DNA of 64,000 bases from Octopus vulgaris. Its lineage: Eukaryota. The stretch covers positions 74,772,001-74,836,000 of the forward strand of contig OX597814.1 in the NCBI GenBank assembly GCA_951406725.2. Direction: 5' to 3'. Positions 3,451 through 63,037 of the stretch are shown piece after piece (position 1 is the first letter of the stretch; every line of letters starts with the position of its first letter). Below the pieces are notes generated by a model, which did not search any database, was not told where the DNA came from, and saw only the letters and a list, made by a program, of their open reading frames with translations. Position numbers and translations under genes: made by a program.

Positions 3451-4046
3451 TGGGAAACCACCGGCAACATCTAGTTTCAGCACTTTATATTGTTACGTGG
3501 AAGCAAGATGAAAAAAATCTAATTGGGCTAGAGACCAAACCAGTAATTTATTTTATGTAAGATAACTGAATTGAAAAAAATTAATGAATCACTATTTCTC
3601 CGTACAGAAGTACCCCACTGGCTCCTGTGGACTTCTGGTTTACCTCTAGCACTAAAGAGATTTTTCCAATGTGAAATAAAGGATTTTCTACAGTTCAAAG
3701 AATGTCACGCTTCGTTGACCTGATGCTAAACAAAAATGTGGAACATTGTCCTGATATCTTTATACGTAAATACTTTATCATGAGTATCCCAATTGATTGG
3801 CACCCTTTCAAAGACAAAAATGGTTTGTTTTCATTTCACGAAGTTAGCCAGTTTTAGATTCATTGTTGTTATATCCAAAAGTAAAACAAGAGCTCACATG
3901 TGGATTTCTCGGGTTGGGACTGGAAATGACTAATATAATGAAAATTTAGATACATAACCATGTTTGGCGAATATATATATATATTCGCCAAACATGGTTA
4001 TGTATCTAAATTTTCATTATAGTCATTTCCAGTCGCAACACACACA

Positions 4047-7377: not shown

Positions 7378-7380
<3 letters not shown>

Positions 7381-7685
7381 TTCAAAATAGAAAATTACCG
7401 TTTAACAGGCAATTTTTACATGCTAGAAATAGCAGTCAAACACGGCCAAAGACCACAATTTTATAGCAAATTTCGAAGTAAATGAAAAATAAAAACCTTT
7501 ACCTTTTCATTTACTTCGAAATTTGCTATAAAATTGTAGTTTTTGGCCGTGTTTGGCTGGTATTTCTAGCATCTAAAAATTGCTTGTTAAAGGATAATTT
7601 TCTGTTTTGAAATACGAATATGTTGTCTCTTGACTTTTTATATATGCTAGGCCACTGGTGGTGATATTTATAACGAGTATTCGCC

Positions 7686-8013: not shown

Positions 8014-8279
8014 TTATATAACAAGGTAAAGGTTTTTATTTTTCATTTACTTCGAAATTTGCTATAAAATTGTGGTTTTTGACCGTGTTTGGCTGCTATT
8101 TCGAGCACGTAAAAATTGCCTGTTAAAGGGTAATTTTCTGTTTTGAAATACGAATATGTTGTCTATTGACTTTTTATACATGCTAGGCCACTGGTTGTGA
8201 TATTTATAACGAGTATTCGCCACCCTATACATACATACATACAAACATACATACATACATACATACATACATACATACA

Positions 8280-9020
<741 letters not shown>

Positions 9021-9039
9021 ACACACACGCACGCGCGCA

Positions 9040-9092
<53 letters not shown>

Positions 9093-9101
9093 GCACGCAC
9101 A

Positions 9102-9141
<40 letters not shown>

Positions 9142-9144
<3 letters not shown>

Positions 9145-9630
9145 GAAAGTGTAACAAATGAACGAAAAGAGCACTTAACACATTTTGTAGGAGTTACATA
9201 TATTATTTAAAATAGCTTGATTCGCCTTCATGTGATTTAAAGTTTCGCAGGCCTCTAACAGAAACCCGTCTCCTTCAGGCTTTGGATTACCGAATGGAGA
9301 AATACAGGAAGTCAACGATGGTTACCGGAAAATAAGTTGCTATTGATTGAGGCAAGTTACATGATGTTGTCAAAGTGATATCAGTTGCCCATCGACACCT
9401 GTTTCTTTAAAAAAAAGACAGGAAGCTGGTGGATCCTAAAATTCTGAGTGTGGCAGAAGTGAGTCTAGCTAGTATGTGAGAGTAAGTTTGTGTTGGTGTA
9501 TGCGTGTCTGAACATTTATACGAAAGGTATGAATGCGTAGAAATGGGTGTGATTGTGTGTATGTATGCATCATTGCTAACTACATACGCGTGCACACGTG
9601 AACGCATTTAGGATGCGAGTATGGGTGCGT
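9142..9630 (-). mobile_element. Probable PLE 3' end inserted in (CA)n, degenerate hammerhead-like motif
   Basis: Minus strand 9242-9280 reads CCTGAAGG...stem-loop...CGAAAC; the 3' end fuses to (TG)n. Confidence 0.4.
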
Positions 9631-9635
9631 ATACA

Positions 9636-9979
9636 TCTATATAAATAAAACTCAACTGCGTATGTGTGTGCATCTGTGTGTGTGTCTGTGTGTTTAACTT
9701 CCCGGCACATCTCCTCCTAGCCAACAAATCGTAGAACCACCAAAAATGAGTCACTTAAAGTTTAGGCGAATGAAAATTGAACTGCGCTATTTCTGTTCCG
9801 AAATTCATCTCGCAAGTGCAAAAATCGATAATGTGTTTGTTTAGGCCTTATCCCATGCATTGAATAGTGAACTTTACTCAGTCAGCTGTTGACGTGAACT
9901 GTGTTCACCACGCGTGCAAGCATGCGTAAATTGCATGAAAAATAAAAAATCAAGATATAAAAACGAATCGCCGTAAATA
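9636..9979 (+). mobile_element. Possible non-autonomous Helitron 5' portion (truncated)
   Basis: Begins A|TCTATATAAATAAAA followed by a (TG)/(TCTG) run, typical of non-autonomous Helitron 5' ends; no CTRR 3' end seen. Confidence 0.35.
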
Positions 9980-10063
9980 TTGTAGAAATTCGGCAAAGAA
10001 ATGAATTTTCGGGATGTAGCCTGGAGGGTTTTTCGTATTAATATATATATATATCATCATATA

Positions 10064-10132
<69 letters not shown>

Positions 10133-10181
10133 AAACAAGTCAAAAATAGAAAATGCTAAGATGATTTTATAGTGAATCTTT

Positions 10182-10219
10182 CAGTACCGGTTTCGGTCAT
10201 TTTGAGACCTTTTCAACTG
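10182..10219 (-). ncRNA. Minimal type I hammerhead in the PLE pLTR, U3-A8 covariant core
   Basis: Minus strand CAG-TTGAAAA-GGTC-TCAAAAT-GACC-GAAAC-CG-GTA-CTG; palindromic ACCGGT stem III. Confidence 0.75.
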
Positions 10220-10474
10220 TAACGATTAAATAATTAAATTTTGAAAAATTTAGAAAAATTAGAAGAAAGGTTTTTTTAAAGGAATACTTCCATAGTAGTG
10301 TTCAGATATATGTGGCATTCTGCCTTTCTCTGACTCCCTTGTTTGCACTTGTGTATTCGAGGTCGTTGTGAGTTCTTGAGGGGGTGGGAGTGGGAAAATC
10401 TGGGCTGGTCAGTGGCGACCGGCAGTCGCTGCGTAGGCGTTATACTTAAAGACATTAGTGGGGGTAGAAGGTGG

Positions 10475-10660
10475 AGAAGTAGAAGAAGAAGAAGAAGATG
10501 ACGGTGCCGATGATGATGACGATGAAGAAGAGGAAGGAGAAGGAGAAGATGACGATGATGATGGTGGTGATGACGATGACGACGATGATGATGATAACGA
10601 TGATGATGAAGAAGAAGAAGAAGAAGAAGAAGAGGGAGAAGAAGAAAAAAAAACAGAGAA
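10475..10660. repeat. (GAA)/(GAT) trinucleotide low-complexity tract in the PLE 3' UTR
   Basis: GAA/GAT/GAC triplet runs seen directly. Confidence 0.9.
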
Positions 10661-10775
10661 GGGAGAATATGAATGGGTGAAGATATAGCTGTTTTGGGGC
10701 GATTAGTAATGGATTCTATGGAATGTAATATTTGTGTGTGTATATATATTTCTTTTATTCTTAAGTTGAGCTATA

Positions 10776-12622
10776 TTAATTGTTTGTCGTAGACCCGTTA
10801 AGAAGTGGCCTGTATTTTATAATAAAGAGATTTTCTTTACTTATTCGTTGTCTCGAGGTTGTATCGTCCCTAAATTGGTAGAGGGGGAAAATTCTGAAGT
10901 TTGGTGTTTTTTGTTGGCGCAAGTATCTATGTGTTGGCTAAAAGCTATTTTTCTGTTTTGGGGAATTTTTATCTGGGATCTGTGCAGGGCCATTCGTTTA
11001 CGCAAACCATTTTTTGTTTGGCCTATGTACTGCTCTTGACACCCGGAGCAGGTTAGTGAGTATATTAGGTTCTCCGAAGCACATGTGAAGTTGCTTTTCA
11101 CTGTAAACCGTTGTCCCTGTTTGAAGGAGAACTCAGAACCCTCGATTAGGTAGTCGCATATCCCGCAATTGGGTCTTCCACATTTTTTTACTGTCGGCTT
11201 CTGTGTTGAAGAGTGAATTCGGGCTTGTGTTAGAAGACTTTTCATGGATCTAGGCTGTCTTTTGCTTTTTATGATCGTGTGTGTTTGGAGGATTGTGTTC
11301 ATTCTGTGGTCTTTTTTTAGGAGGGGTATGTTGTGGAGGATGGTGCCGAAGGCTTCGTTATTGAGAGGGTTGTGTGTGGAGATGTATGGTAAGGCTTTTG
11401 GTTGTAAGTTTTTCTTTGATTTGGGATGTCTCAGTTCCTTGATGTTAAGTTGAAGGGCACGTTGAATGCACTTGTCAATAAGTGAAGGTGGATAGTTCCT
11501 GGTGATAAGGGTATCTTTTAGTTCTTGTAGTCGTGTGTCTCTGGTGTTTGCGTTAGAGACTATAGTGCATATCCTTTTTGCTAGATTGAAGGGGATATTC
11601 ATCCTGGTGGGTCTGGGGTGGCATGAATTGAATGGAAGATATTGCTTAGAGTCTGTAGGTTTATAGTATATGTCTGTTTCTATTATATTATTAGCTTTCT
11701 TAATGAGGATATCGAGGAAGGGAAGTTGTTGCTGGCTATATTCCATCGTGAATTGGATGTTTACGTCCAGCCCGTTTAAAATTTCCTGGAATTCTATGAG
11801 TTTTTCTATATTTTTATGCCAAAGAATGAAACAGTCATCTAGATATCTCTTCCAGTTGTTTTCTATGTAGATGGAGAAAGGGCTGCCATATCTTTCTAGA
11901 ACCTAACGATATAGACTGATCTCTAGGTATCCTATGACTAGGTTGGCAAAGGAGGGGGCCATTCGTGTACCCATCGCAGTCCCCGATTTTTGTCGGTAGA
12001 AGTTGTCATTGAAGGCGAAGAAGTTATTTTCCAGGATGAATTTAACCCCTTCTATCACGAATTCTTTTTTGATGCGGTGTGGTAGTTCGTTGGCGTGATT
12101 CTCTAGCCAGAATTGGATTGCCTCTAGTCCTAGGTTGTGGGGGATATTGGAGTAGAGGTTGACTACATCGAAGGATACCAGTATGGTGTTTTGGTTTATA
12201 GTATTCGGTAGGTGATTGAGCATATCTAAGTCGTCCCTTATATAGCTTTTGACATGTTTGAGGAGTGGTTTTAACAGGGTGTCTAAAAAGTTACTGAGGC
12301 GGTGGGTTTCGCATGCGGGACCTGCTATTATGGGTCTCAATTTGAGGTCATTAGGATTAGGGACTTTAATTATTTTGTCTGTGGCTATCTTGCATGCGTT
12401 GCTTATTTTTTCACTTTTGTGGATCTTAGGTATACCGTAGAATTGGCTAGTTTTACTTGTGAAATTGGTCATATAATCATATTCTTTGTCGGTGAGCCCT
12501 GCTTTGTATGGGTTAAATATGGATTTTAGTTCCCTCATTATTTTTTGTTGACTGTAGTTTTGTGCCTTTTCATAGTATGTTGTGTCTTCCAGCATAGAAA
12601 GAACCAAAGTTATGTAAAAGTT
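10776..12622 (-). pseudogene. PLE RT-GIY-YIG ORF with one in-frame TAG (11903-11905) and one frameshift in an A-run (about 10910)
   Basis: ORFs 11903-12607 and 10841-11746 are in the same frame; the gap translates VLERYGSPFSIYIENNWKRYLDDCFILW...QFT. A one-base shift at the A-run restores the C-terminus ...FRIFPLYQF...RISKENLFIIKYRPLLNGSTTNN*. Confidence 0.9.
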
Positions 12623-12623
12623 A

Positions 12624-12683
<60 letters not shown>

Positions 12684-12689
<6 letters not shown>

Positions 12690-13184
12690 TATATAGAAGG
12701 AGCTTCTACAGGACTAGTACTGTTTCATTCAAGAGAAATCTTCAGGAAGCTATTTAACAAGAATTGTATTAGCATTTATACATTTAGGCAGGTTTAAAGG
12801 AGTGGTGGTGGGGGACTTTTTGGGGGTAGGCATAGCGCAAAATATCATACTTGGGGGAGTGGTCAAGGAGTCAGTGGTAAGTTAGATGAAAGAATAGATA
12901 AATAAAAAAATAGATAAATAAAATAAAAAAATAAAAAAATAAAAAAATAAAAATGAAAAATAAAAATAAAAAGATAAAATAAAAGAATAAAAAAAATAAA
13001 AAATATAAAAAATATATATAAAAAAAATATATATATATAAAATATATATATAAAAAAATATATATATAAAAAAAAAAAAAAAAAAAGGGGGGATAGAGTT
13101 ATAGGTAAATAAGGAGATTCTCACTTATACCTATACACACATGTATACGTATCTACACACACATACACACATACACATATATAT

Positions 13185-13231
<47 letters not shown>

Positions 13232-13684
13232 CCTACACATACACACATACATACATACAAATTTACATATACATATATATATATATACAATCCAATACAG
13301 GCCCATTCCCTAATTTTAATTTTATTATCTTCATTTATTACTTTTGTTATCTTTGATCGCTAGGGCTAAGAATCCTGGCAGTGGCTGCCTGTCCATTTGT
13401 CTGTCTACTAGAAGGCAAGTACTCATTCCCGCACGCACACTCATTAGCACGTACATTCACCCATTCGTACACTCATACACATACACGTACGCACGCGTTA
13501 TATTCATACATACAAACATCTACATACGTTCACGTATATACACATACGTACTCGTACCTACAGATTCGTGTCTACACTTTAGGAGGCTAGTCTATACATA
13601 TACACCAATAAATATACATATATATATATATACCCGCACATACATACACACACACACATATATACTCCTACATACAGATACATA

Positions 13685-13734
<50 letters not shown>

Positions 13735-13921
13735 CATACACCTACACACATACATATACACACACATACATACACATATATATACATACACAAACATATA
13801 TACACACACATATATATACATACACACATACACACATACATACGTATACATACATACATACATCCATACATCCATACTTACATGCATTTATACGCATACA
13901 CACACCCATCTATATATATGC

Positions 13922-13953
<32 letters not shown>

Positions 13954-14235
13954 TCACACATACATATACAAATCTACGCACACACATACATACATACACG
14001 TATACGCATACACGCACATACACATATACATGCGTACCCATACACGTGCACACACGCACGCGCATCCATATATATACACACACACACATATATATATACA
14101 CGTGTGCAAGCATACATACATACTCATACGCGCACACATACTTACAAATACATATATGCACACACTTACACACATATATATACATACACATATACATGCA
14201 TACATACATATATGCATACATACACACACGCACTC

Positions 14236-14268
<33 letters not shown>

Positions 14269-14273
14269 TATGC

Positions 14274-14304
<31 letters not shown>

Positions 14305-14942
14305 CACACATACATACACATACATACATATATACATATATAGACATACATACACATACATACACATACACATACGTACACACATATACACACATATATA
14401 TATATATACATATATATATATACACATATACACATACATATATACACATATACATACATATACATACACACACACATACATATATACATATACACTGATA
14501 CACATACCCATACATACACATGCATATACTTATATTACTACATACTCACATATATAAACATATATACATATACACACATACATATATACCTGTACATACA
14601 CATACGCATGCATATATATATATATACATACACATATATACACATATATATATATATATATATACATACACACACACACACACATACATATACACATATA
14701 CATGTATACATACGCAAAAATGATACGCATATATACACATACACACACACAGACAGATGCATATACATACATATATATATATAAACTACATATCTATATA
14801 AATACATACATAATACACATATACACACACATATATATACATTCATGCATATACATATACAAGTATACATACACAAACATACACACACACGCGCACACAT
14901 ACATATACACACACACATATACAAATACATACATACACACAT

Positions 14943-14991
<49 letters not shown>

Positions 14992-15382
14992 CATGTACAC
15001 ATATACATATGTATATATATATCAACAAGGGAGGGTAAAGTTAATTAGTTATTAATCAATTTCATCAAGTGTTCAGTATGTAAAGGGACCATTATTATTT
15101 TGAGTAAACAATGTTAGAGGGAAAAAAATTCTCTAAGTAGTGGAAGAGGCTAAAAAACTTTATTGGCTGCTATTTCTAGAAAGTTTAGTATGTGGCAAAG
15201 TAATTTATTTTATTTTCCTAAGCCCTAATTATATAATATTTTATACATACATACACATACATAAGCACATACATCCACACATACATATGCATATACATAT
15301 ATACACATATACATACAAACACATATACACATATACACACACACACACATACAAGCACATACATATATATACATACATACAT

Positions 15383-15423
<41 letters not shown>

Positions 15424-15706
15424 AATATATATACATATATATTTTTTTACATGCATACATACACACACACACACATAATACATGCGTATATTCCTACTGT
15501 ACCCATGCATTTCTATACATATATACATACATACATACGATACACATATACAAGCGTGCACATATAATATGTGAAAGGTCTTAGGAGAAAAGGTAATCGG
15601 GGGTGCTAGGGGAACAGTGGGGTTGGGGGGGGGGTTGTAGGGGGGGGGGGGGGGGTTGTGTGTGTGTGTATGTATGCATGTAAAAAAATATATATGTATA
15701 TATATT

Positions 15707-15747
<41 letters not shown>

Positions 15748-16138
15748 ATGTATGTATGTATATATATGTATGTGCTTGTATGTGTGTGTGTGTGTATATG
15801 TGTATATGTGTTTGTATGTATATGTGTATATATGTATATGCATATGTATGTGTGGATGTATGTGCTTATGTATGTGTATGTATGTATAAAATATTATATA
15901 ATTAGGGCTTAGGAAAATAAAATAAATTACTTTGCCACATACTAAACTTTCTAGAAATAGCAGCCAATAAAGTTTTTTAGCCTCTTCCACTACTTAGAGA
16001 ATTTTTTTCCCTCTAACATTGTTTACTCAAAATAATAATGGTCCCTTTACATACTGAACACTTGATGAAATTGATTAATAACTAATTAACTTTACCCTCC
16101 CTTGTTGATATATATATACATATGTATATGTGTACATG

Positions 16139-16179
<41 letters not shown>

Positions 16180-16830
16180 GTGTGTGTGTGTATGTGTGTA
16201 TGTATGTATTTGTATATGTGTGTGTGTATATGTATGTGTGCGCGTGTGTGTGTATGTTTGTGTATGTATACTTGTATATGTATATGCATGAATGTATATA
16301 TATGTGTGTGTATATGTGTATTATGTATGTATTTATATAGATATGTAGTTTATATATATATATGTATGTATATGCATCTGTCTGTGTGTGTGTATGTGTA
16401 TATATGCGTATCATTTTTGCGTATGTATACATGTATATGTGTATATGTATGTGTGTGTGTGTGTGTATGTATATATATATATATATATATTGTGTATATA
16501 TGTGTATGTATATATATATATATGCATGCGTATGTGTATGTACAGGTATATATGTATGTGTGTATATGTATATATGTTTATATATGTGAGTATGTAGTAA
16601 TATAAGTATATGCATGTGTATGTATGGGTATGTGTATCAGTGTATATGTATATATGTATGTGTGTGTGTATGTATATGTATGTATATGTGTATATATGTA
16701 TGTGTATATGTGTATATATATATATGTATATATATATATATGTGTGTATATGTGTGTACGTATGTGTATGTGTATGTATGTGTATGTATGTCTATATATG
16801 TATATATGTATGTATGTGTATGTATGTGTG

Positions 16831-16904
<74 letters not shown>

Positions 16905-17183
16905 TGCGTGTGTGTATGTATGCATATATGTATGTATGCATGTATATGTGTATGTATATATATGTGTGTAAGTGTGTGCATATATGTATTTGTAAGTATG
17001 TGTGCGCGTATGAGTATGTATGTATGCTTGCACACGTGTATATATATATGTGTGTGTGTGTATATATATGGATGCGCGTGCGTGTGTGCACGTGTATGGG
17101 TACGCATGTATATGTGTATGTGCGTGTATGCGTATACGTGTATGTATGTATGTGTGTGCGTAGATTTGTATATGTATGTGTGA

Positions 17184-17215
<32 letters not shown>

Positions 17216-17402
17216 GCATATATATAGATGGGTGTGTGTATGCGTATAAATGCATGTAAGTATGGATGTATGGATGTATGTATGTATGTATACGTATGTA
17301 TGTGTGTATGTGTGTATGTATATATATGTGTGTGTATATATGTTTGTGTATGTATATATATGTGTATGTATGTGTGTGTATATGTATGTGTGTAGGTGTA
17401 TG

Positions 17403-17452
<50 letters not shown>

Positions 17453-17905
17453 TATGTATCTGTATGTAGGAGTATATATGTGTGTGTGTGTATGTATGTG
17501 CGTGTATATATATATATATGTATATTTATTGGTGTATATGTATAGACTAGCCTCCTAAAGTGTAGACACGAATCTGTAGGTACGAGTACGTATGTGTATA
17601 TACGTGAACGTATGTAGATGTTTGTATGTATGAATATAACGCGTGCGTACGTGTATGTGTATGAGTGTACGAATGGGTGAATGTACGTGCTAATGAGTGT
17701 GCGTGCGGGAATGAGTACTTGCCTTCTAGTAGACAGACAAATGGACAGGCAGCCACTGCCAGGATTCTTAGCCCTAGCGATCAAAGATAACAAAAGTAAT
17801 AAATGAAGATAATAAAATTAAAATTAGGGAATGGGCCTGTATTGGATTGTATATATATATATATGTATATGTAAATTTGTATGTATGTATGTGTGTATGT
17901 GTAGG

Positions 17906-17952
<47 letters not shown>

Positions 17953-18451
17953 ATATATATGTGTATGTGTGTATGTGTGTGTAGATACGTATACATGTGT
18001 GTATAGGTATAAGTGAGAATCTCCTTATTTACCTATAACTCTATCCCCCCTTTTTTTTTTTTTTTTATATATATATTTTTTTATATATATATTTTTTATA
18101 TATATATATTTTTTTTATATATATTTTTTATATTTTTTATTTTTTTATTCTTTTATTTTATCTTTTTATTTTTATTTTTCATTTTTATTTTTTTATTTTT
18201 TTATTTTTTTATTTTATTTATCTATTTTTTTATTTATCTATTCTTTCATCTAACTTACCACTGACTCCTTGACCACTCCCCCAAGTATGATATTTTGCGC
18301 TATGCCTACCCCCAAAAAGTCCCCCACCACCACTCCTTTAAACCTGCCTAAATGTATAAATGCTAATACAATTCTTGTTAAATAGCTTCCTGAAGATTTC
18401 TCTTGAATGAAACAGTACTAGTCCTGTAGAAGCTCCTTCTATATAATAAAT
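12684..18451. repeat. Giant inverted repeat: about 2.8-kb arms (12684-15474 / 15657-18451), about 180-bp G-rich spacer
   Basis: Unique islands (12690-12900, 13290-13600, 15020-15240) recur as reverse complements (18240-18450, 17540-17850, 15890-16110); mirrored ORFs appear on opposite strands in the track. Confidence 0.95.
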
Positions 18452-18516
18452 TAATTTTACTCTGCTATGTATTGAGTACCTTACTTACTGTGGTTAACCC
18501 CGAATCAACCCGGGAC

Positions 18517-18520
<4 letters not shown>
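15657..18520 (+). mobile_element. Non-coding, microsatellite-rich PLE-type 3' region ending in a pLTR with hammerhead-like motif
   Basis: CTGAAGA-TTTC-TCTT-GAAT-GAAAC-AGTACTA-GTC at 18390-18423, AATAAA at 18445, then a tail of about 65 bp into (AT)n; mirror copy at about 12712-12745. Confidence 0.6.
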
Positions 18521-18583
<63 letters not shown>

Positions 18584-18735
18584 TGACGTATTTTTGCCAT
18601 TTCAATATGGCTAACCCCTAAGGGTGGATGCTACTGTAGTTTTTAGCCCCAGGAGGACACACTCCTCCAGCTGGCCATAGACACACTATCTGTGTCCTGT
18701 CAGTATTTGCAAAGGGAAGTCATCCTTCCCGTCTT

Positions 18736-18805
18736 CAACTTATGATACACACGGACTCGAGTTTCGAGGTATTGACCTCTCGTCAGCGTGTGACAATCAT
18801 AGTTG
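18736..18805 (-). ncRNA. Type I hammerhead ribozyme (copy 1), predicted cleavage after GUC between 18754 and 18753
   Basis: CACACG-CTGACGA-GAGG-TCAATA-CCTC-GAAAC-TCGA-GTC-CGTGTG; stem I extends (CAACTATGAT/ATCATAAGTTG) beyond a UGU/U internal loop. Confidence 0.93.
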
Positions 18806-19088
18806 TCGCCGAGAATTAGATTTCCTTCACAAATACTTATACTTTTTCCAGCGTCCACTGTCGCTGATATTGAAAAAGTGAAATCAAACAATGATAAATA
18901 TCAAAGTGAGTTATATACAGTAGCGGTAACACATCGTGACGTATTTTTGCCATTTCAATATGGCTAACCCCTAAGGGTGGATGCTACTGTAGTTTTTAGC
19001 CCCAGGAGGACACACTCCTCCAGCTGGCCATAGACACACTATCTGTGTCCTGTCAGTATTTGCAAAGGGAAGTCATCCTTCCCGTCTT

Positions 19089-19158
19089 CAACTTATGATA
19101 CACACGGACTCGAGTTTCGAGGTATTGACCTCTCGTCAGCGTGTGACAATCATAGTTG
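19089..19158 (-). ncRNA. Type I hammerhead ribozyme (copy 2)
   Basis: Identical to copy 1, offset by 353 bp. Confidence 0.93.
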
Positions 19159-19420
19159 TCGCCGAGAATTAGATTTCCTTCACAAATACTTGTACTTTTT
19201 CCAGCGTCCACTGTCGCTGATATTGAAAAAGTGAAATCAAACAATGATAAATATCAAAGTGAGTTATATACAGTAGCGGTAACACATCGTGACGTATTTT
19301 TGCCATTTCAATATGGCTAACCCCTAAGGGTGGATGCTACTGTAGTTTTTAGCCCCAGGAGGACACACTCCTCCATCTGGCCATAGACACACTATGTGAA
19401 GGAAATCTAATTCTCGGCGA

Positions 19421-19490
19421 CAACTATGATTGTCACACGCTGACGAGAGGTCAATACCTCGAAACTCGAGTTCGTGTGTATCATAAGTTG
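19421..19490 (+). ncRNA. Type I hammerhead ribozyme (copy 3, inverted; GUU cleavage triplet)
   Basis: CACACG-CTGACGA-GAGG-TCAATA-CCTC-GAAAC-TCGA-GTT-CGTGTG on the plus strand. Confidence 0.9.
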
Positions 19491-19683
19491 AAGACGGGAA
19501 GGATGACTTCCCTTTGCAAATACTGACAGGACACAGATAGTGTGTCTATGGCCAGCTGGAGGAGTGTGTCCTCCTGGGGCTAAAAACTACAGTAGCATCC
19601 ACCCTTAGGGGTTAGCCATATTGAAATGGCAAAAATACGTCACGATGTGTTACCGCTACTGTATATAACTCACTTTGATATTT

Positions 19684-19741
<58 letters not shown>

Positions 19742-19779
19742 CATATATATATATATGATGATATATATATATATATATA

Positions 19780-20960
19780 TATTAATACGAAAAAACCCTC
19801 CAGGCTACATCCCGAAAATTCATTTCTTTGCCGAATTTCTACAAATACTTTTCAAAAATTCCAATTCTAAAGGGTCTAAACAAACCGAAACGCTGGGTGA
19901 TACTGCTAGTAACTATATACATTCTTGCGTTTGTGTGTGAAAATATGAGTGCGAATATGCGTGTGTGTATGTCTGAAAGGTCATATGCGTATGAGTGTCC
20001 GTGTGTGTAAATGTGCATGTGCAAGTGTGTGTATATATGCTTTTGTTATTTATGTTTGTGCATCTGTTAGTGTGACAGATGTGGTCTTTATGAGTGCGGT
20101 AGTGATGTATGCTAGTGTAACTGCGTGTACGTATGGGTGTGAGTGTGTGAGAGAGTGTGTGTGCGTGTGTGTGTGTGTGTACGCGTGTGTGCGTATGCGC
20201 ACGAGAGTGTGAGCGTGTGTCCGTGAGTGTGAGCGTGTATAGGAATATGTGAGGAGGCGTGTGTGTGTGTGTGTGTGTGCACATAAATGCTTTTGTGTAT
20301 ATTTATATGTATTTATTTGTGTGCACATGATGTATAAGGAAGCAAAATTAGAGGCTTGCAGGGGATACATAATGTTGTGGTGTCAGTCTGCGTAGGCATT
20401 TGTGGAACAGCCGACGTTCAGGTGGTATATCTGGATTGTCGGCAGTCAAGGGTTTGAAGTTCACCAGGGGGGAATACCTCTGGTAGCAGCAATAAGATAG
20501 TTCATATTTCCTGCTGACAGATACTACAAGTTAATGGAGGATGTGCAGTCTTTCACGAAGTAGAGCTGGTAATTGCGGCCCTGGGTAAATAGGATGCTAC
20601 CCTATCGACGATGGTTCATTCGATGTTAGGTGTTTCGTTCCGGAGGTCGCGAAGCCTCCGGAACAAAACACCCAGAGTCAAATAACCAAGAAGTGGAATT
20701 CTCTCTATGCCTGAATTTGTATGAGTGCAAGGGCTGTATGTACCTTCTCTTGAAGTCGTTGGCTGTCATGCCCGTGTAGTACCTTGTGGTGCTATCGGGT
20801 GGTATGACGGTAGATCTGTAGACTATAGCCCTTGAGAGGCAGGATCCCCATAGAGCGCAGCAGATACATTTTTGCGCCTGTTGTAGTGGGCAATATTAGA
20901 AGTAATGTTATCTAAGCAGGCGCAACTCACCTTGACGTTATGTGGGTTAAAGAGCCTATA
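19780..20960 (-). mobile_element. Degenerate 3' fragment of a second, different PLE (GIY-YIG domain plus 3' UTR)
   Basis: Minus strand 20960-20540 gives RLFNPHNVKVSCACLDNI...CALWGSCLSRAIVYRSTV...RYYTGMTANDFKRRY, a GIY-YIG-like VY...Y.G.T...FK.R pattern with frameshifts. Confidence 0.65.
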
Positions 20961-31156: not shown

Positions 31157-31211
31157 GATGCAATTGCCCTACCTCTCAACGTGCATATACATGTACGCGT
31201 GTGTGTTGATA

Positions 31212-31259
<48 letters not shown>

Positions 31260-31401
31260 GGATTAAGCACATAAATGTGAAACGAGGTGGATAAAAGAGT
31301 ACTCAAATACCACAGGTAGAGTAATATGTCCGATGGGCGGGAACGTGAAACTCCGAGTAACAGCTTTTGTTATATTTCTGCTGCTTTTAAATAAAAAAAA
31401 A

Positions 31402-31434
<33 letters not shown>

Positions 31435-31629
31435 TACTCTATTTAAAAGCAGCAGAAATATAACAAAAGCTGTTACTCGGAGTTTCACGTTCCCGTTCGT
31501 CGGACATATTACTCTACCGCTGGTATTTTAGTACTCTTTTCCACCTTGTTTCACATTTATGTGCTTACTCCGGCATATATATATATTATGTGCTTACTCC
31601 GGTATATATATATATTATGTGCTTACTCC

Positions 31630-31689
<60 letters not shown>

Positions 31690-31750
31690 TATATATATCA
31701 ACACACACGCGTATATGTATATGCACGTTGAGAGGTAGGGCAATTGCATA
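31157..31750. repeat. About 600-bp nested palindrome around (AT)n with two hammerhead-like pLTR pieces
   Basis: 31157-31215 inverted at 31692-31750; 31262-31394 inverted at 31440-31570. The minus strand at about 31473-31503 reads CCGACGA-ACG-GGAA-CGT-GAAAC-TCCGA-GTA. Confidence 0.85.
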
Positions 31751-55146: not shown

Positions 55147-55290
55147 ATTGAGACCTTTTCAACTGTAAGTATAGAAAAAAAATTAATTTTTTTCCATACT
55201 TACAGTTGAAAAGGTCTCAATGGCCGAAACCGGTACTGAAATGTTTTTATAAAATTATTTTTGCATTTTCTACCTTGACTTTTTTCCATA
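55147..55290 (+). mobile_element. Solo pLTR of the Neptune family with U3-A8 hammerhead and 5' fold-back
   Basis: CAG-TTGAAAA-GGTC-TCAAT-GGCC-GAAAC-CG-GTA-CTG at 55203-55238; 55147-55221 is a near-perfect palindrome; homologous to 10130-10225. Confidence 0.8.
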
Positions 55291-55314
55291 TATATGTGTG
55301 TTTGTGTGTGTGTA

Positions 55315-55350
<36 letters not shown>

Positions 55351-56512
55351 TGTATGTATGTATGTATGTATGTATGTATGCATGTATGTATATCGTGGTT
55401 ATAGTTTTTCAAATTAACTATACTTTGATCTTAGCTAAAACGCCGAGAAACTGCCTTTCACCTAAGAAAGTTGAATTTTTAAATTGTCAAAATTTATCCG
55501 AGCTTCCGTATGGGCAAAATCCTGTGACCTGAGGTTGTCATAACACAGGGTAACCTACGCGCGTGTGTGTGTGTGTGTGTACATGCGTACACAAACACAC
55601 ACATGTGGTCCTGCCAACGGTTACAGCTGTTACGCGAGCGGGCTATATATACTTAATGTTTCTTTACATCCCCCTATCAATTGCTTGTGATGATTATCCT
55701 TCTGATTAAACTATAGTTATGTGTATGAGTACGCACGCGTTAATGTGTGTGTCATGCACGAGAGATTGCATCTATGAAAGTGTGTGAGAGTTTAAGCATG
55801 TGTGTGTGTCCCTCGACTGCGTTACTTCAGGTGTCTTTAGTCGCCCCCTACCACTACATATCAATTTCAATGTTCCTTTTGAGCATACTGTTTTTAAAGA
55901 ATGTCTCTAATTTGAAATGTGCTTGCTTATGTATGACTGTTTGTACATGTATGTGTGTGTTTGTGTGTGCTTTTTTATGTTCTGATGAGTTCTTTGTAAA
56001 TATTTGCCTGGATAGATTCATTACTGTAACAATATATAACCAATTTTATTATAAATATTTAACAACTCTTATTAACTACAACGTACTACTCGCGATATGG
56101 AATACAGACAAATAGCAGAGTTTTTTTTCTTCTTAACACAGTCATTCAATAAGCTACGTCTGGAATTCTTAATCATAATTAAGCGCAATCATATGCGAGC
56201 CAGTTGGGCAGTCTCCATGCATTTACTTCATCAGCAATAAATGACAGTCAAATAACTCTTACAACACACCCTACAACCTTAAAGAGAATTTTGTATTATT
56301 AGATTTTGAATAATGTAAATAAATTCATTCGTAGCGCTCTATACAGCATTTTTAAAAACGTAAAATATAATTTTATATAAACATACAATTTTAGCTTTAG
56401 AAAAGTGAAGAAAGTCGTTGAAGTACAGGTTTTCATCTCTCTGTGAACATAGGAAGTTCAATGTGACTAGTATCAAGTCTTCTTAGACATTCATTAGAGA
56501 AACAATACCCAT

Positions 56513-59542: not shown

Positions 59543-61232
59543 TAAGTACCCGAAGAATGTTTTCATTTAAGTAACTATATATAAGATAAGGCTGTTATGC
59601 GAAAGATACTGTTTATTGTAACATCGAATAGAAATATATTCTCTACTGTATCAAGATGTTAATTTGAAATTAAAGTTTTTGACAGATTATTCATTTATGC
59701 TATTATTTAATACAACAGTATTTCCATGATGAATAATTCTAGAAATAATTTGAAACTGTTAAACACTGAGAAATGGGTGGGTTCAAAATCTAATATAATT
59801 TCTAGGAAATATTAACATCGATATATTCGGACACATGGGAAATATTTGTAGTGAAATAGTTAAGCTGATTTAAATCGATCCCAAAAGAATACAGATAGTT
59901 AATCTATTAGCAACTAGGTGATAAACAGCAAAGTCAACCATCATGCAATTTTAACTCTTCATTGTCAAATTAATGTAATTTTTGTCTGTCGGTGAAATTT
60001 CTAATCCTGAAGAGAGTTTTATCAAATACAAAATAAAGATCTAATTTTAATCATTATGTTTAAGCGTTTCCAAGAGTATTGGTGGTGCATGTGAAATGGT
60101 TTAGCTTCAATAGTGAAACTAAATTGCTACCAAAGAATTGCTTCATCGAAAGCTTACCTTGAACTTGCACATTTAATTTTAATGTAAGCACAAAACGATA
60201 CTTTTTGGTGTGGAGCGTAATGTCAGGTATGAACCCTAGTTCATATTTTTTTTCAATTCCATCTTCAGAGGGCTGGAAGACGAACTTGCAACTCATAGGA
60301 AATAGAACACAAAATGTAAAAAGAAATAATGTTCCAGGTCATTTTGCCCGAGCGCTCTACTGATTCTCTGATGCTCACCCATTTTTCATACGCATATTAC
60401 TTATGACCATATATCGAATTAGTGCCGACACGAATTAATAACTTGAACTACATATATATATTTGGCCATTAATTACAAGTGGATACATACTTATTCATGT
60501 TTTCTTTCTACTATGGAGACTTGAGAATCACTTGACAAGGAAAAGTGTTTTAAGAAGCAATGAATATTTTAAAAGAAAGCTTGTTAAATATACTGTAATA
60601 CATGTGTGTGTGTGTACTAGATATTAGCTTTGGTAAAGAAACAGGTGCAACTGAAGAAAAAAGAACATGGGAGAGTTCTTTCATATCACAAGCGTTAAAA
60701 CGATGTCTAATTAAGAAAAAGATAAAACAGCAATGTAATTCAATGATAGCAAATGCTTGTTAAATGTAACAAGCATTTATAATGATAAACGCGCGCGCGG
60801 GGTACAAGCACAAATGCATATGCATCATCATTATTATCATCATTACAAATGCCATCAATTAACGGAGTGTTGAGTTACTGTAACATCAGACCAGTATTTA
60901 CCAGTCATTTTACTTTAGATCGTTCTTGAGAGTTATCAAAGTCCGATCATTCCTCCATTCTTAGGAGATCGATCATGGTGATATGAATCCAAATTTAGAT
61001 TAAATACTAAAATATATCAAGTGGAATAGAGAAGACTTGAAATAGACCTTCCTCTTACCTATAGTGAAGACAGTGACAACCTCCACTATCCAACTATCTA
61101 CGAAAGTAACAGACTGTTTGGTAACATCAAGACGTAGATTTTTAAAGAATTTATTTGGCGGAAAATCTGGGTTTTGCCCTTTGCTACTCAAAAAGTGACA
61201 GTCCAACAGATAGCTAGAAAGACTAAATATTT

Positions 61233-61963
61233 GGATCGTTACCTTTTGACGTACAGATTTTAAAAATGATTTTTTTGTAACTAAACACTATCAAACTTCG
61301 GACACTGGTAGAATCTGTCATATAAAACATGTTTTACTCTTAGCATTTTTGAGAAAAACATATATTTACGAAGTTATTCCACATTAAAGTAGTAAAATTT
61401 CGGTAATTTCAACAAATCAATGACGTGTATTCAGCTGAATAAAATTACTGCCGTTGTTTGTCAACAAGAACTTCCGGCGGTGTATTTTTCGTTTGTCACT
61501 GTTATTTATGACAACCCTAACCCTAAAACCCTAACCCTAAAACCTTAACCTTAACCCTAACCCTAAAACCCTAACCCTAAAACCCTAACCCTAAAACCCT
61601 AACCCTAAAACCCTAACCCTAACACTCTAACCCTAAAACCCTAACACTAAAACCTTAAAGCTAAAACCAGTACAAACGCACGAACGATGTCATAAATAAC
61701 AATGACAAACGAAAAATACACCGCCGATGGTTGTTGACAAACAACGGCAGTAATTTTATTCAGCTGAATACACATCATTGATTGGTTGAAATTACCGAAA
61801 TAGGACTACTTTAACGTGAAATAACTTCGTATATATACATTTTTCTCGAAAATGCTAAGAGTAAAACATGTTTTATATGACACATTCTACCAGTGTCCGA
61901 AGTTTGAAAGTGTTTAGTTACAAAAATTATTTTTAAAATCTGTAGGTCAAAAGGTAAAGATCC
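61233..61963. mobile_element. MITE with about 280-bp TIRs (GGATC...GATCC), apparent 8-bp TSD AAATATTT, Merlin-like
   Basis: 61233-61513 is inverted at 61688-61963; AAATATTT at 61225-61232 and 61964-61971. Confidence 0.8.
61514..61668. repeat. Telomere-like (CCCTAA)/(CCCTAAAA) array inside the MITE
   Basis: AACCCTAAAACCCT 14-bp periodicity seen directly. Confidence 0.9.
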
Positions 61964-63037
61964 AAATATTTTAACCCTCTTTTGTCGTTGCAAGAATAAT
62001 CGATTGTGGACTTATTCAAATTTTTGACTGAACTGTATGTATTCAGTTTGATTCATGCTGAGTGACCTGATATTCCTGAATAAACTTTTAACTAAACGGG
62101 CATATCGGTATAATATGCTTCATTTTCTCATAATTTTTATTTAGTCTAGTACTGACTGTCTACACAGCTACTGCCAAAGGTGAAACGATTTTTTTTTTTG
62201 TATTCAAATTTCACAAGAAATAATTTAACCTTTCGTTCTTCCGAAGTCAATAAAATAAGCACAAATAAAATTCTACAATAGAGTTATTAAAACAGTCCGT
62301 ATGTCTAGCTAAAGTGAAAACGGAGATCAATATTTCATTATCTCTTGAATGGATTACTTTCGAGTATTATCTAATGCTGTTTTTGAACAATGTTCAGTTC
62401 CTTTATAAAGCATTAAAAGTTGTAATGCAAAAATTAGCGATATGCAAATTGGTTATGTGTATATGATGTCCAATACTTTGTTTATCTGTATCATTCTTGA
62501 TGCAATATAATTCTTCTGATGCTAATCTTTTGATTTTTGTACAAGACTAATTGCTCAAAGTCGAGACAGCTAAATCTTCTGCAGTGTTGTTACTCATACA
62601 TTTTCAAATCCAGTTAAAAAGTAACTTGGCACTGAGAAGTAACGAAACTAAATAATCTATAATATATAATCAAACTATAATTTTAGCTACTACCCGCTTC
62701 TCAAAACATCAGTATTAATTTCACTTTTCATCGACATCGTGGCTAAATCTCCAGTTGTATTTAGAGGAGGACAATCGATTCAGTCATTTGTTTATCTTAT
62801 TGATTCCAGGTGATCGAAAAACTCTGGTGATATTTAAATTTAGCACATCAAGTTTTCAAATCAATCAAGTTTGAGGAACAAATTCATTATTTAATTGATT
62901 ATTTAGGAATAGGTTACATACATATTACTTGGAAGGCATAATATAGCTTCTAACATGCAGAATAGAATTATATACTAAAATTGCATTTTGCTCAGCTCTT
63001 TCATTTTTTATCTAATGTTCAATGCAATTTCTTTTTT

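What the first reader, a model, noticed from the sequence alone, without database searches (positions are those of the whole stretch)
9980..19844. A 10-kb train of three hammerhead-bearing elements linked by (AT)n and bracketed by an inverted duplication
Seen: about 95 bp at 9980-10075 is the reverse complement of about 19735-19844, including the same CATCAT interruption in the (AT)n. Between them lie the Neptune PLE (10130-12622), the giant palindrome (12684-18520) and the retrozyme array (18580-19688), each separated only by (AT)n. Inference: one microsatellite served as a self-renewing landing pad for an autonomous PLE and its non-autonomous dependants, and flank DNA was copied in inverted form during one event. 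The Helitron-like piece at 9636 is cut off exactly at the left repeat.
Basis: partly seen in the sequence, partly recalled or inferred. Interest (0 to 1): 0.72.

Follow-up and report, generated by a model that had tools for sequence, protein, structure and literature searches.

The report
Retroelement pile-up inside one Helitron
Three young, abundant jumping elements that carry self-cutting RNA motifs sit side by side in the AT microsatellite of one older Helitron-like repeat, and the mirror-image ends around them are a short fold-back of a kind also found at AT tracts without inserts, so this is likely a chance pile-up of known parts and not a new system.

Summary
The mirror-image bracket is real, but the reading changes. 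The 61-bp piece and its CATCAT tail are the normal interior of an abundant Helitron-like repeat (15 copies elsewhere with the same junction). One copy starts at 9636 and ends at 19909, so the train lies inside it. About 210 bp of it are replaced by an inverted copy of its own left side, through a junction unique in the genome. Such AT-centred fold-backs also occur without inserts (2-4 of 641 random tracts). The three passengers are a broken, 5'-truncated Neptune-like copy, a two-armed 3' UTR of a second coding family (Hydra-type by motifs, at least 4,768 ends), and a 353-nt retrozyme. All show the published Penelope insertion pattern: (AT)n target, outward 3' ends, one tailed end on double arms. 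(AT)n is left on both sides of insertions, but neighbours are no commoner than random targeting predicts (2 seen, 1.6-3.3 expected; 7 seen, 3.3-6.8 expected). The scan had already noted the two-armed retrozyme pattern in other genomes. Read data on the junction were inconclusive.

The parts
9636..10040 (+). 5' part of a non-autonomous Helitron-like repeat (TC start after A); includes the 61-bp segment 9980-10040 that is duplicated
   Evidence: 1,113 candidates, 40 scored at 97-100%; extent; ends
10041..10128 (.). The repeat's own internal microsatellite (AT)7-CATC-(AT)5-GT-(AT)29; landing tract
10129..12622 (-). Neptune-like Penelope element, single arm, 5'-truncated, short (tail-less) 3' end; in-frame stop at 11903-11905 and a one-base frameshift near 10910
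10182..10219 (-). Minimal type I hammerhead, core UUGAAAA (U3/A8 in place of C3/G8), palindromic helix III
12623..12683 (.). Interrupted (AT)n linker, about 30 units
12684..15658 (-). Left arm: whole microsatellite-rich 3' UTR of a Hydra-type Penelope element, short 3' end; hammerhead at 12701-12751
15657..18519 (+). Right arm of the same insertion, tailed 3' end (about 68 nt longer); hammerhead at 18384-18434; 2-nt overlap with the left arm
18520..18579 (.). (AT)30 linker
18580..19394 (-). Retrozyme, 2.3 units of 353 nt, short 3' end; hammerheads at 18748-18792 and 19101-19145
19395..19688 (+). Inverted retrozyme arm, tailed 3' end (42 nt longer); hammerhead at 19434-19478
19689..19844 (-). 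Inverted copy of the Helitron microsatellite and of 9980-10040, standing where about 210 bp of the Helitron are missing
19846..19909 (+). 3' end of the same Helitron-like copy (CTAG, then T); junction 19844/19846 unique in the genome

Best explanation
The 10-kb train lies inside one Helitron-like repeat whose internal (AT)n holds three Penelope-type insertions, likely made in three separate events, and the bracket is likely a local fold-back at that self-complementary tract with no special link to them. Inferred order: (1) the Helitron-like copy landed with its built-in (AT)n-CATCAT-(AT)n; (2) at a break or stalled fork in the tract, the right-hand DNA end lost about 210 bp, switched to the left flank at a 2-nt TA microhomology and copied 61 bp plus the microsatellite, leaving a short AT-centred palindrome; (3) GIY-YIG endonuclease/reverse transcriptase complexes of Penelope-like elements cut in the (AT)n and wrote cDNA from one or both cut ends, using a short start site on one side and a tailed start site on the other. 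Each insertion left (AT)n on both sides, and later insertions hit it at about the genome-wide rate. Shown: anatomy, family identity, uniqueness of the junction, family-wide insertion pattern, neighbour counts. Inferred: order, template switch, two-ended priming in vivo, which family moves the retrozyme.
For: Host: 14 of 15 outside copies with the CATCAT junction carry the same 3' end downstream in the same orientation, none has the inverted piece; 5 of 21 distinct copies have other inserts in this microsatellite. Local origin: one genome match to the junction at up to 2 mismatches; the two 49-bp cores are identical, which holds for 3 of 91 pairs of other copies, though 3 of 14 copies equal this sequence. 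Fold-backs without inserts: 2 clear and 2 diverged cases at 641 random tracts, plus window 3913-4039 and 31158-31749; at double-arm insertions 1 of 59 (L146), Fisher p 0.23-0.36. Separate ordinary insertions: 156 of 162 3' ends abut (AT)5+; tail-out pairs at 28 of 39 Hydra-type and 11 of 34 Neptune-like loci, all one short plus one tailed end; 20 of 38 retrozyme loci likewise; single Neptune-like arms with the 5' end on (AT)n at 12 of 21 loci, by eye. No excess neighbours: 2 seen vs 1.6-3.3 expected, 7 vs 3.3-6.8; 1 of 156 element ends vs 11 of 711 random tract ends face a hammerhead end. Age order fits: private changes 5 in 426 for the Helitron, 3 in 2,300 and 3 in 1,109 for two passengers, 2 in 2,790 between arms. 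In vitro a Penelope protein cuts and extends both strands and starts at two sites that define the tail (PMC11167929).
Against: A three-insert train of these families is expected only 0.3-1.4 times per genome (retrozyme number assumed), and a bracket at 0.3-0.6% of tracts, so both together are unlikely if independent; selection by the scan and other hammerhead families (9-39 trains expected) soften but do not remove this. Among the first 100 listed Hydra-type tails, two tail-to-tail pairs lie about 85 and 170 nt apart, outside my pattern's 16-76 nt range and more than the null predicts; not examined. The bracket copies differ at four slippage sites, which a second Helitron copy would also explain. 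Only three of the possible junction types were counted. No empty or intermediate allele was seen.
Confidence: 0.6

Rival explanations
1. The bracket arose during the first Penelope-type insertion: one cut end was resected and copied the other end before priming cDNA.
For: L146 shows a 28-34-bp inverted copy of unique flank beside a Hydra-type insertion, also with TA at the switch point. L1 insertions produce inversions and templated flank insertions (PMC11702581, passages).
Against: 1 of 59 double-arm sites is not above the background of 2-4 of 641 tracts; 0 of 38 retrozyme loci and 0 of 16 single-arm loci under a stricter mask.
Confidence: 0.2
2. A second, 5'-truncated Helitron copy inserted inverted into the first, and the DNA between the two (AT)n tracts was deleted.
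For: The family is abundant and truncated copies exist (L014, L028); the right copy is nearer the family majority than the left at the T run and GTATGT.
Against: Needs an insertion within 210 bp of the same element plus a deletion; identical cores favour one source about four- to five-fold; no clean A|TC start at 19844; simple fold-backs are common.
Confidence: 0.1
3. The tract is a true hot spot: a cruciform-prone AT palindrome, or a freshly extended (AT)n, draws repeated Penelope insertions. This can hold together with the best explanation's origin of the bracket.
For: Low joint expectation of train plus bracket; flanking tracts sum to a median of 32 units against 16 for size-weighted random tracts; 7 vs 3.3 at the loosest null, p 0.05; two further close pairs.
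Against: The other counts match chance; a preference for long tracts would give the same flank lengths.
Confidence: 0.2
4. Assembly artefact (fold-back reads).
For: AT-rich palindromes are hard to assemble (stated for these elements in PMC8557442).
Against: Arms end at two fixed family sites, centres are asymmetric, arms and brackets differ in sequence, and the same layout recurs at dozens of loci.
Confidence: 0.04

Closest known systems
Complex insertions of endonuclease-bearing Penelope-like elements (PMC8557442 Fig. 2 legend; PMC3846280 passages; PMC11167929)
   Same: 5' truncation, inverted 5'-truncated second copy, tail on one end only, (TA)n targets, hammerhead near the 3' end.
   Different: Three families in series inside one host repeat; the Hydra-type tail is about 68 nt against the 30-40 bp described.
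Hydra clade of Penelope-like elements (PMC8557442 section 11)
   Same: RW(R/K), DKT, CxCX5C linker, no CCHH, CxxC and CxH near the C terminus, hammerhead, (TA)n target.
   Different: Described members are generally under 3 kb; this family has a 3' UTR of about 2.9 kb of microsatellites and at least 4,768 tailed ends.
Neptune (or Nematis) clade (PMC8557442 sections 3 and 6 passages)
   Same: RT followed by CX4CxxC linker and GIY-YIG with CCHH; GLKF and DKG motifs; (TA)n target.
   Different: This copy is truncated and broken; clade not placed on a tree.
Metazoan non-LTR retrozymes (PMC7229834 passages; bioRxiv 10.64898/2026.07.22.740005 part 1 of 5 and passages)
   Same: Tandem non-coding 353-nt units, each with a type I hammerhead.
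   Different: Inverted second arm, two fixed starts and (AT)n target; the word 'tail' occurs in neither main text and 'inverted' not in PMC7229834.
Canonical non-autonomous Helitrons (PMC4067079 passages)
   Same: 5' TC, 3' CTAG, between A and T, no duplication, internal microsatellite as in related rolling-circle repeats.
   Different: 3' hairpin weak; autonomous partner not sought.

Membership tests
Hydra-clade PLE (family of the palindrome) | RWK-type and DKT motifs | tested here: met
   RWR and DKT in the frame upstream of the same UTR at L222
Hydra-clade PLE (family of the palindrome) | CxCX5C linker, no CCHH, CxxC and CxH around the last E and N | tested here: met
   read by eye in L222 and L131
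Hydra-clade PLE (family of the palindrome) | Hammerhead and (TA)n target | tested here: met
Hydra-clade PLE (family of the palindrome) | Single intact ORF | tested here: inconclusive
   the one near-full copy read (L222) is in two frames, 506 + 225 aa; no Pfam or PDB hit for the 506-aa part
Hydra-clade PLE (family of the palindrome) | Placement in the Hydra clade on an RT tree | not tested
   no reference sequences in hand
Neptune-clade PLE | RT plus C-terminal GIY-YIG with CCHH | tested here: met
   RVT_1 E 4e-8 and GIY-YIG E 0.0012 (below the curated cut-off) in the 785-aa frame of L155; motifs by eye
Neptune-clade PLE | CX2-5CxxC linker | tested here: met
   CGRPNCGIC in window and L155; shared with Nematis, so not decisive
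Neptune-clade PLE | Placement on an RT tree | not tested
   no reference sequences in hand
Autonomous element (window copy 10129-12622) | Complete open frame | tested here: not met
   5'-truncated, stop and frameshift absent from 15 rows of 8 other loci; 785-aa open frames at 6 of 15 loci
Non-LTR retrozyme | Tandem 150-400-nt units each with a type I hammerhead | tested here: met
Non-LTR retrozyme | No coding frame | tested here: met
   no frame of 120 aa or more in 18580-19688
Non-LTR retrozyme | Self-cleavage and circular RNA | not testable with these tools
   needs bench or RNA data; no RNA runs were laid
Non-autonomous Helitron | 5' TC, 3' CTRR, between A and T | tested here: met
   window ends; 14 CTAGT and 1 CTGGT matches among 17 loci
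Non-autonomous Helitron | 16-20-nt palindrome about 11 bp from the 3' end | tested here: inconclusive
   weak hairpin, -3.6 kcal/mol in L004, decayed in the window
Non-autonomous Helitron | Rep/Helicase partner with the same ends | not tested
   no search made

The most novel reading that the evidence does not exclude
An (AT)n-centred fold-back makes a cruciform-prone palindrome that becomes a shared hot spot for GIY-YIG retroelements of two clades and their retrozyme passenger, with a Helitron carrying ready-made AT targets around the genome; roughly 9,000-19,000 such fold-backs (extrapolated) would then be preferred landing sites and would show that DNA structure, not only sequence, guides Penelope insertion.
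Probability: 0.2. Interest if true: 0.6.

Novelty: new member of a known kind. Interest (0 to 1): 0.33.

Why it matters
As a locus it is mostly a textbook figure: three Penelope-type insertions and a fold-back in one host repeat. Two side results have some value. Thousands of near-identical copies show the two-start, two-arm signature in a Neptune-like family, a Hydra-type family and a retrozyme, which fits the in vitro two-strand priming result and supports Penelope-driven retrozyme movement. And a Hydra-type element with a 2.9-kb microsatellite UTR is spreading microsatellites and multi-kilobase palindromes through this genome. Whether palindromic AT tracts attract these elements can be tested by a single whole-genome count.

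Tried and rejected
Rfam scan: no hit at gathering thresholds, so hammerheads rest on my own motif scan (0 hits in reversed control sequence). Reads: contigs of runs X2 and X11 match the right flank 19858-20130 without a difference; none of the 32 listed pieces from X2, X11, X3, X4 bridges 19845/19846 (longest 35 bases; 1,094 pieces not shown). With no positive control this is no evidence either way. A first flank test masked too much and missed a known fold-back; the milder rule was re-run on 59 double-arm sites and the random set only, not on the single-arm sites. A larger sample of 60, then 20, Hydra-type loci could not be fetched, so two close tail-to-tail pairs stay unexamined. No exact count of retrozyme ends was made. 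Pfam and PDB gave nothing for the Hydra-type frame. Rejected: 'common repeat inserted twice as such' (junction unique); 'palindrome is a non-autonomous element' (coding frame upstream in longer copies). Ten literature searches listed no paper on such trains or brackets in cephalopods; supplements were not read and subscription papers are not covered.
Full report
Setting. The window lies on contig C1 of a 2.8-Gb genome in 227 contigs. From size and repeat content it is likely an octopus; that is my inference, no call names it.

The bracket. 9980-10040 and the microsatellite after it are the reverse complement of 19689-19844, with no substitution in the 61-bp part and four slippage differences. 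A genome search with the left piece gave 1,113 candidates. In other loci it is the interior of a repeat that starts TC, continues through (AT)n-CATCAT-(AT)n and about 210 further bases, and ends CTAG before T. The junction with CATCAT occurs 17 times exactly, 15 outside the window. In the window the 3' end of this repeat sits at 19846-19909 in the same orientation as 9636-10040. So the train is inside one Helitron-like copy, about 210 bp of which are replaced by an inverted copy of its left side. That junction has one match in the genome at up to 2 mismatches, and none of 15 outside copies has the inverted piece. The switch point shows at most a TA microhomology and one extra base.

The passengers. 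(a) 10129-12622: RT, CX4CxxC linker and GIY-YIG with CCHH, so Neptune-like by the features in PMC8557442 (passages and sections 3, 11 read). This copy is 5'-truncated and has a stop and a frameshift that other copies lack; 6 of 15 loci read have a 785-aa open frame. Exact short ends number 1,152. (b) 12684-18519: longer copies continue into a coding frame with RWR, DKT, CxCX5C, CxxC and CxH and no CCHH, the Hydra features. The palindrome is thus two arms of that family's 3' UTR. Its protein is 22% identical to family (a) over 222 aa. Tailed ends number 4,768. Both arms share two minority variants, so they come from one source. (c) 18580-19688: 2.3 units of 353 nt plus an inverted arm, at least 2,365 candidates genome-wide. 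Six hammerhead motifs were found, each on the strand whose 3' end faces an (AT)n.

Insertion pattern. 156 of 162 3' ends abut (AT)n. Tail-out pairs were found at 28 of 39 Hydra-type and 11 of 34 Neptune-like loci, each with one short and one tailed end; for the retrozyme 20 of 38 loci were short plus tailed, 17 single-armed with the short end, 1 other (L236 was split by my clustering and is two-armed). These loci were the best-scoring hits, so they favour young copies. The layout is the one drawn in PMC8557442 and described in PMC3846280 (passages). PMC11167929 (parts 1-2 of 4) reports that a purified Penelope protein cuts and extends both strands and starts at two sites that define the tail. 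I infer two-ended priming here; PMC3846280 proposes self-priming instead, and these data do not exclude it. The window's three inserts are ordinary members of their families.

Is the pad self-renewing? In part. Flanking tracts have a median of 15 units a side, 48 of 59 sites keep at least 8 on both sides, and the sum (median 32) is twice the size-weighted random tract; a preference for long tracts would look the same. Re-use is not in excess. From 60 regions of 10 kb at round-number positions the genome has 0.8-1.7 million tracts. Hydra-tail facing Neptune-short: 2 seen, 1.6-3.3 expected. Hydra-tail facing Hydra-tail: 7 seen, 3.3-6.8 expected. Hydra-tail facing retrozyme: 1, the window itself. 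These patterns allow gaps of 16-76 nt only; two pairs at about 85 and 170 nt among the first 100 listed tails hint at more and were not examined. One of 156 element ends faces another hammerhead end, against 11 of 711 random tract ends. The same null expects 0.3-1.4 three-insert trains of these families, or 9-39 if all hammerhead-bearing inserts are counted (both totals are estimates).

Is the bracket tied to insertion? One of 59 other double-arm sites (L146) has an inverted flank copy of about 30 bp. But AT-centred inverted copies of 26-64 bp occur with no insert at 2 of 641 random tracts, with 2 more diverged cases, and twice elsewhere in this window; the rates do not differ (p 0.23-0.36). 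The bracket is best read as one of these. L1 is reported to cause inversions and templated insertions at its sites (PMC11702581, passages), so formation during the first insertion stays possible.

Other papers seen: PMC7229834 and bioRxiv 10.64898/2026.07.22.740005 (retrozymes; passages, and part 1 of 5 of the latter), PMC4067079 (Helitron ends; passages), PMC4209133 (minimal hammerheads with palindromic helix III; passages). That U3/A8 can replace C3/G8 in the hammerhead core is recalled, not from a call. The scan's earlier notes hold nothing for this genome but describe the two-armed retrozyme pattern in other genomes.

Verdict. A real but composite locus made of known kinds of element.

Noticed in passing
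window 3913-4039 and 31158-31749: Two more (AT)n-centred inverted duplications without inserts, 56 bp and over 130 bp of arm.
   Followed up: partly
window 55147-55375: Older, short two-armed stub of a related Neptune-like element with the same minimal hammerhead.
   Followed up: partly
window 61225-61971: Inverted repeat of about 290 bp at 91% around an (AACCCT)n-like tract, probably a MITE-type repeat.
   Followed up: no
window 7378-7614: 237-bp palindrome next to (AT)n with no hammerhead by my scan; part of it recurs at 8015-8277.
   Followed up: no
L163 4066-6599 (also L071): A 92%-identical Neptune-like arm joined 5' to 5' with a retrozyme arm, no (AT)n at the joint; a possible mixed-template insertion.
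   Followed up: partly
L227 6549-9248: A second Neptune-like family (899-aa frame) lies between two arms of the Hydra-type UTR.
   Followed up: no
L155 2514-3827: A 437-aa frame with no Pfam hit overlaps the start of the 785-aa Neptune-like frame, also at L152; possibly an ORF1 joined by frameshift.
   Followed up: no
L003, L027: Small palindromic inserts of other families in the same Helitron microsatellite.
   Followed up: no
G000 C1:37505623-37505816 and C1:40703268-40703377: Two tail-to-tail pairs of Hydra-type ends among the first 100 listed, more than the null predicts.
   Followed up: no
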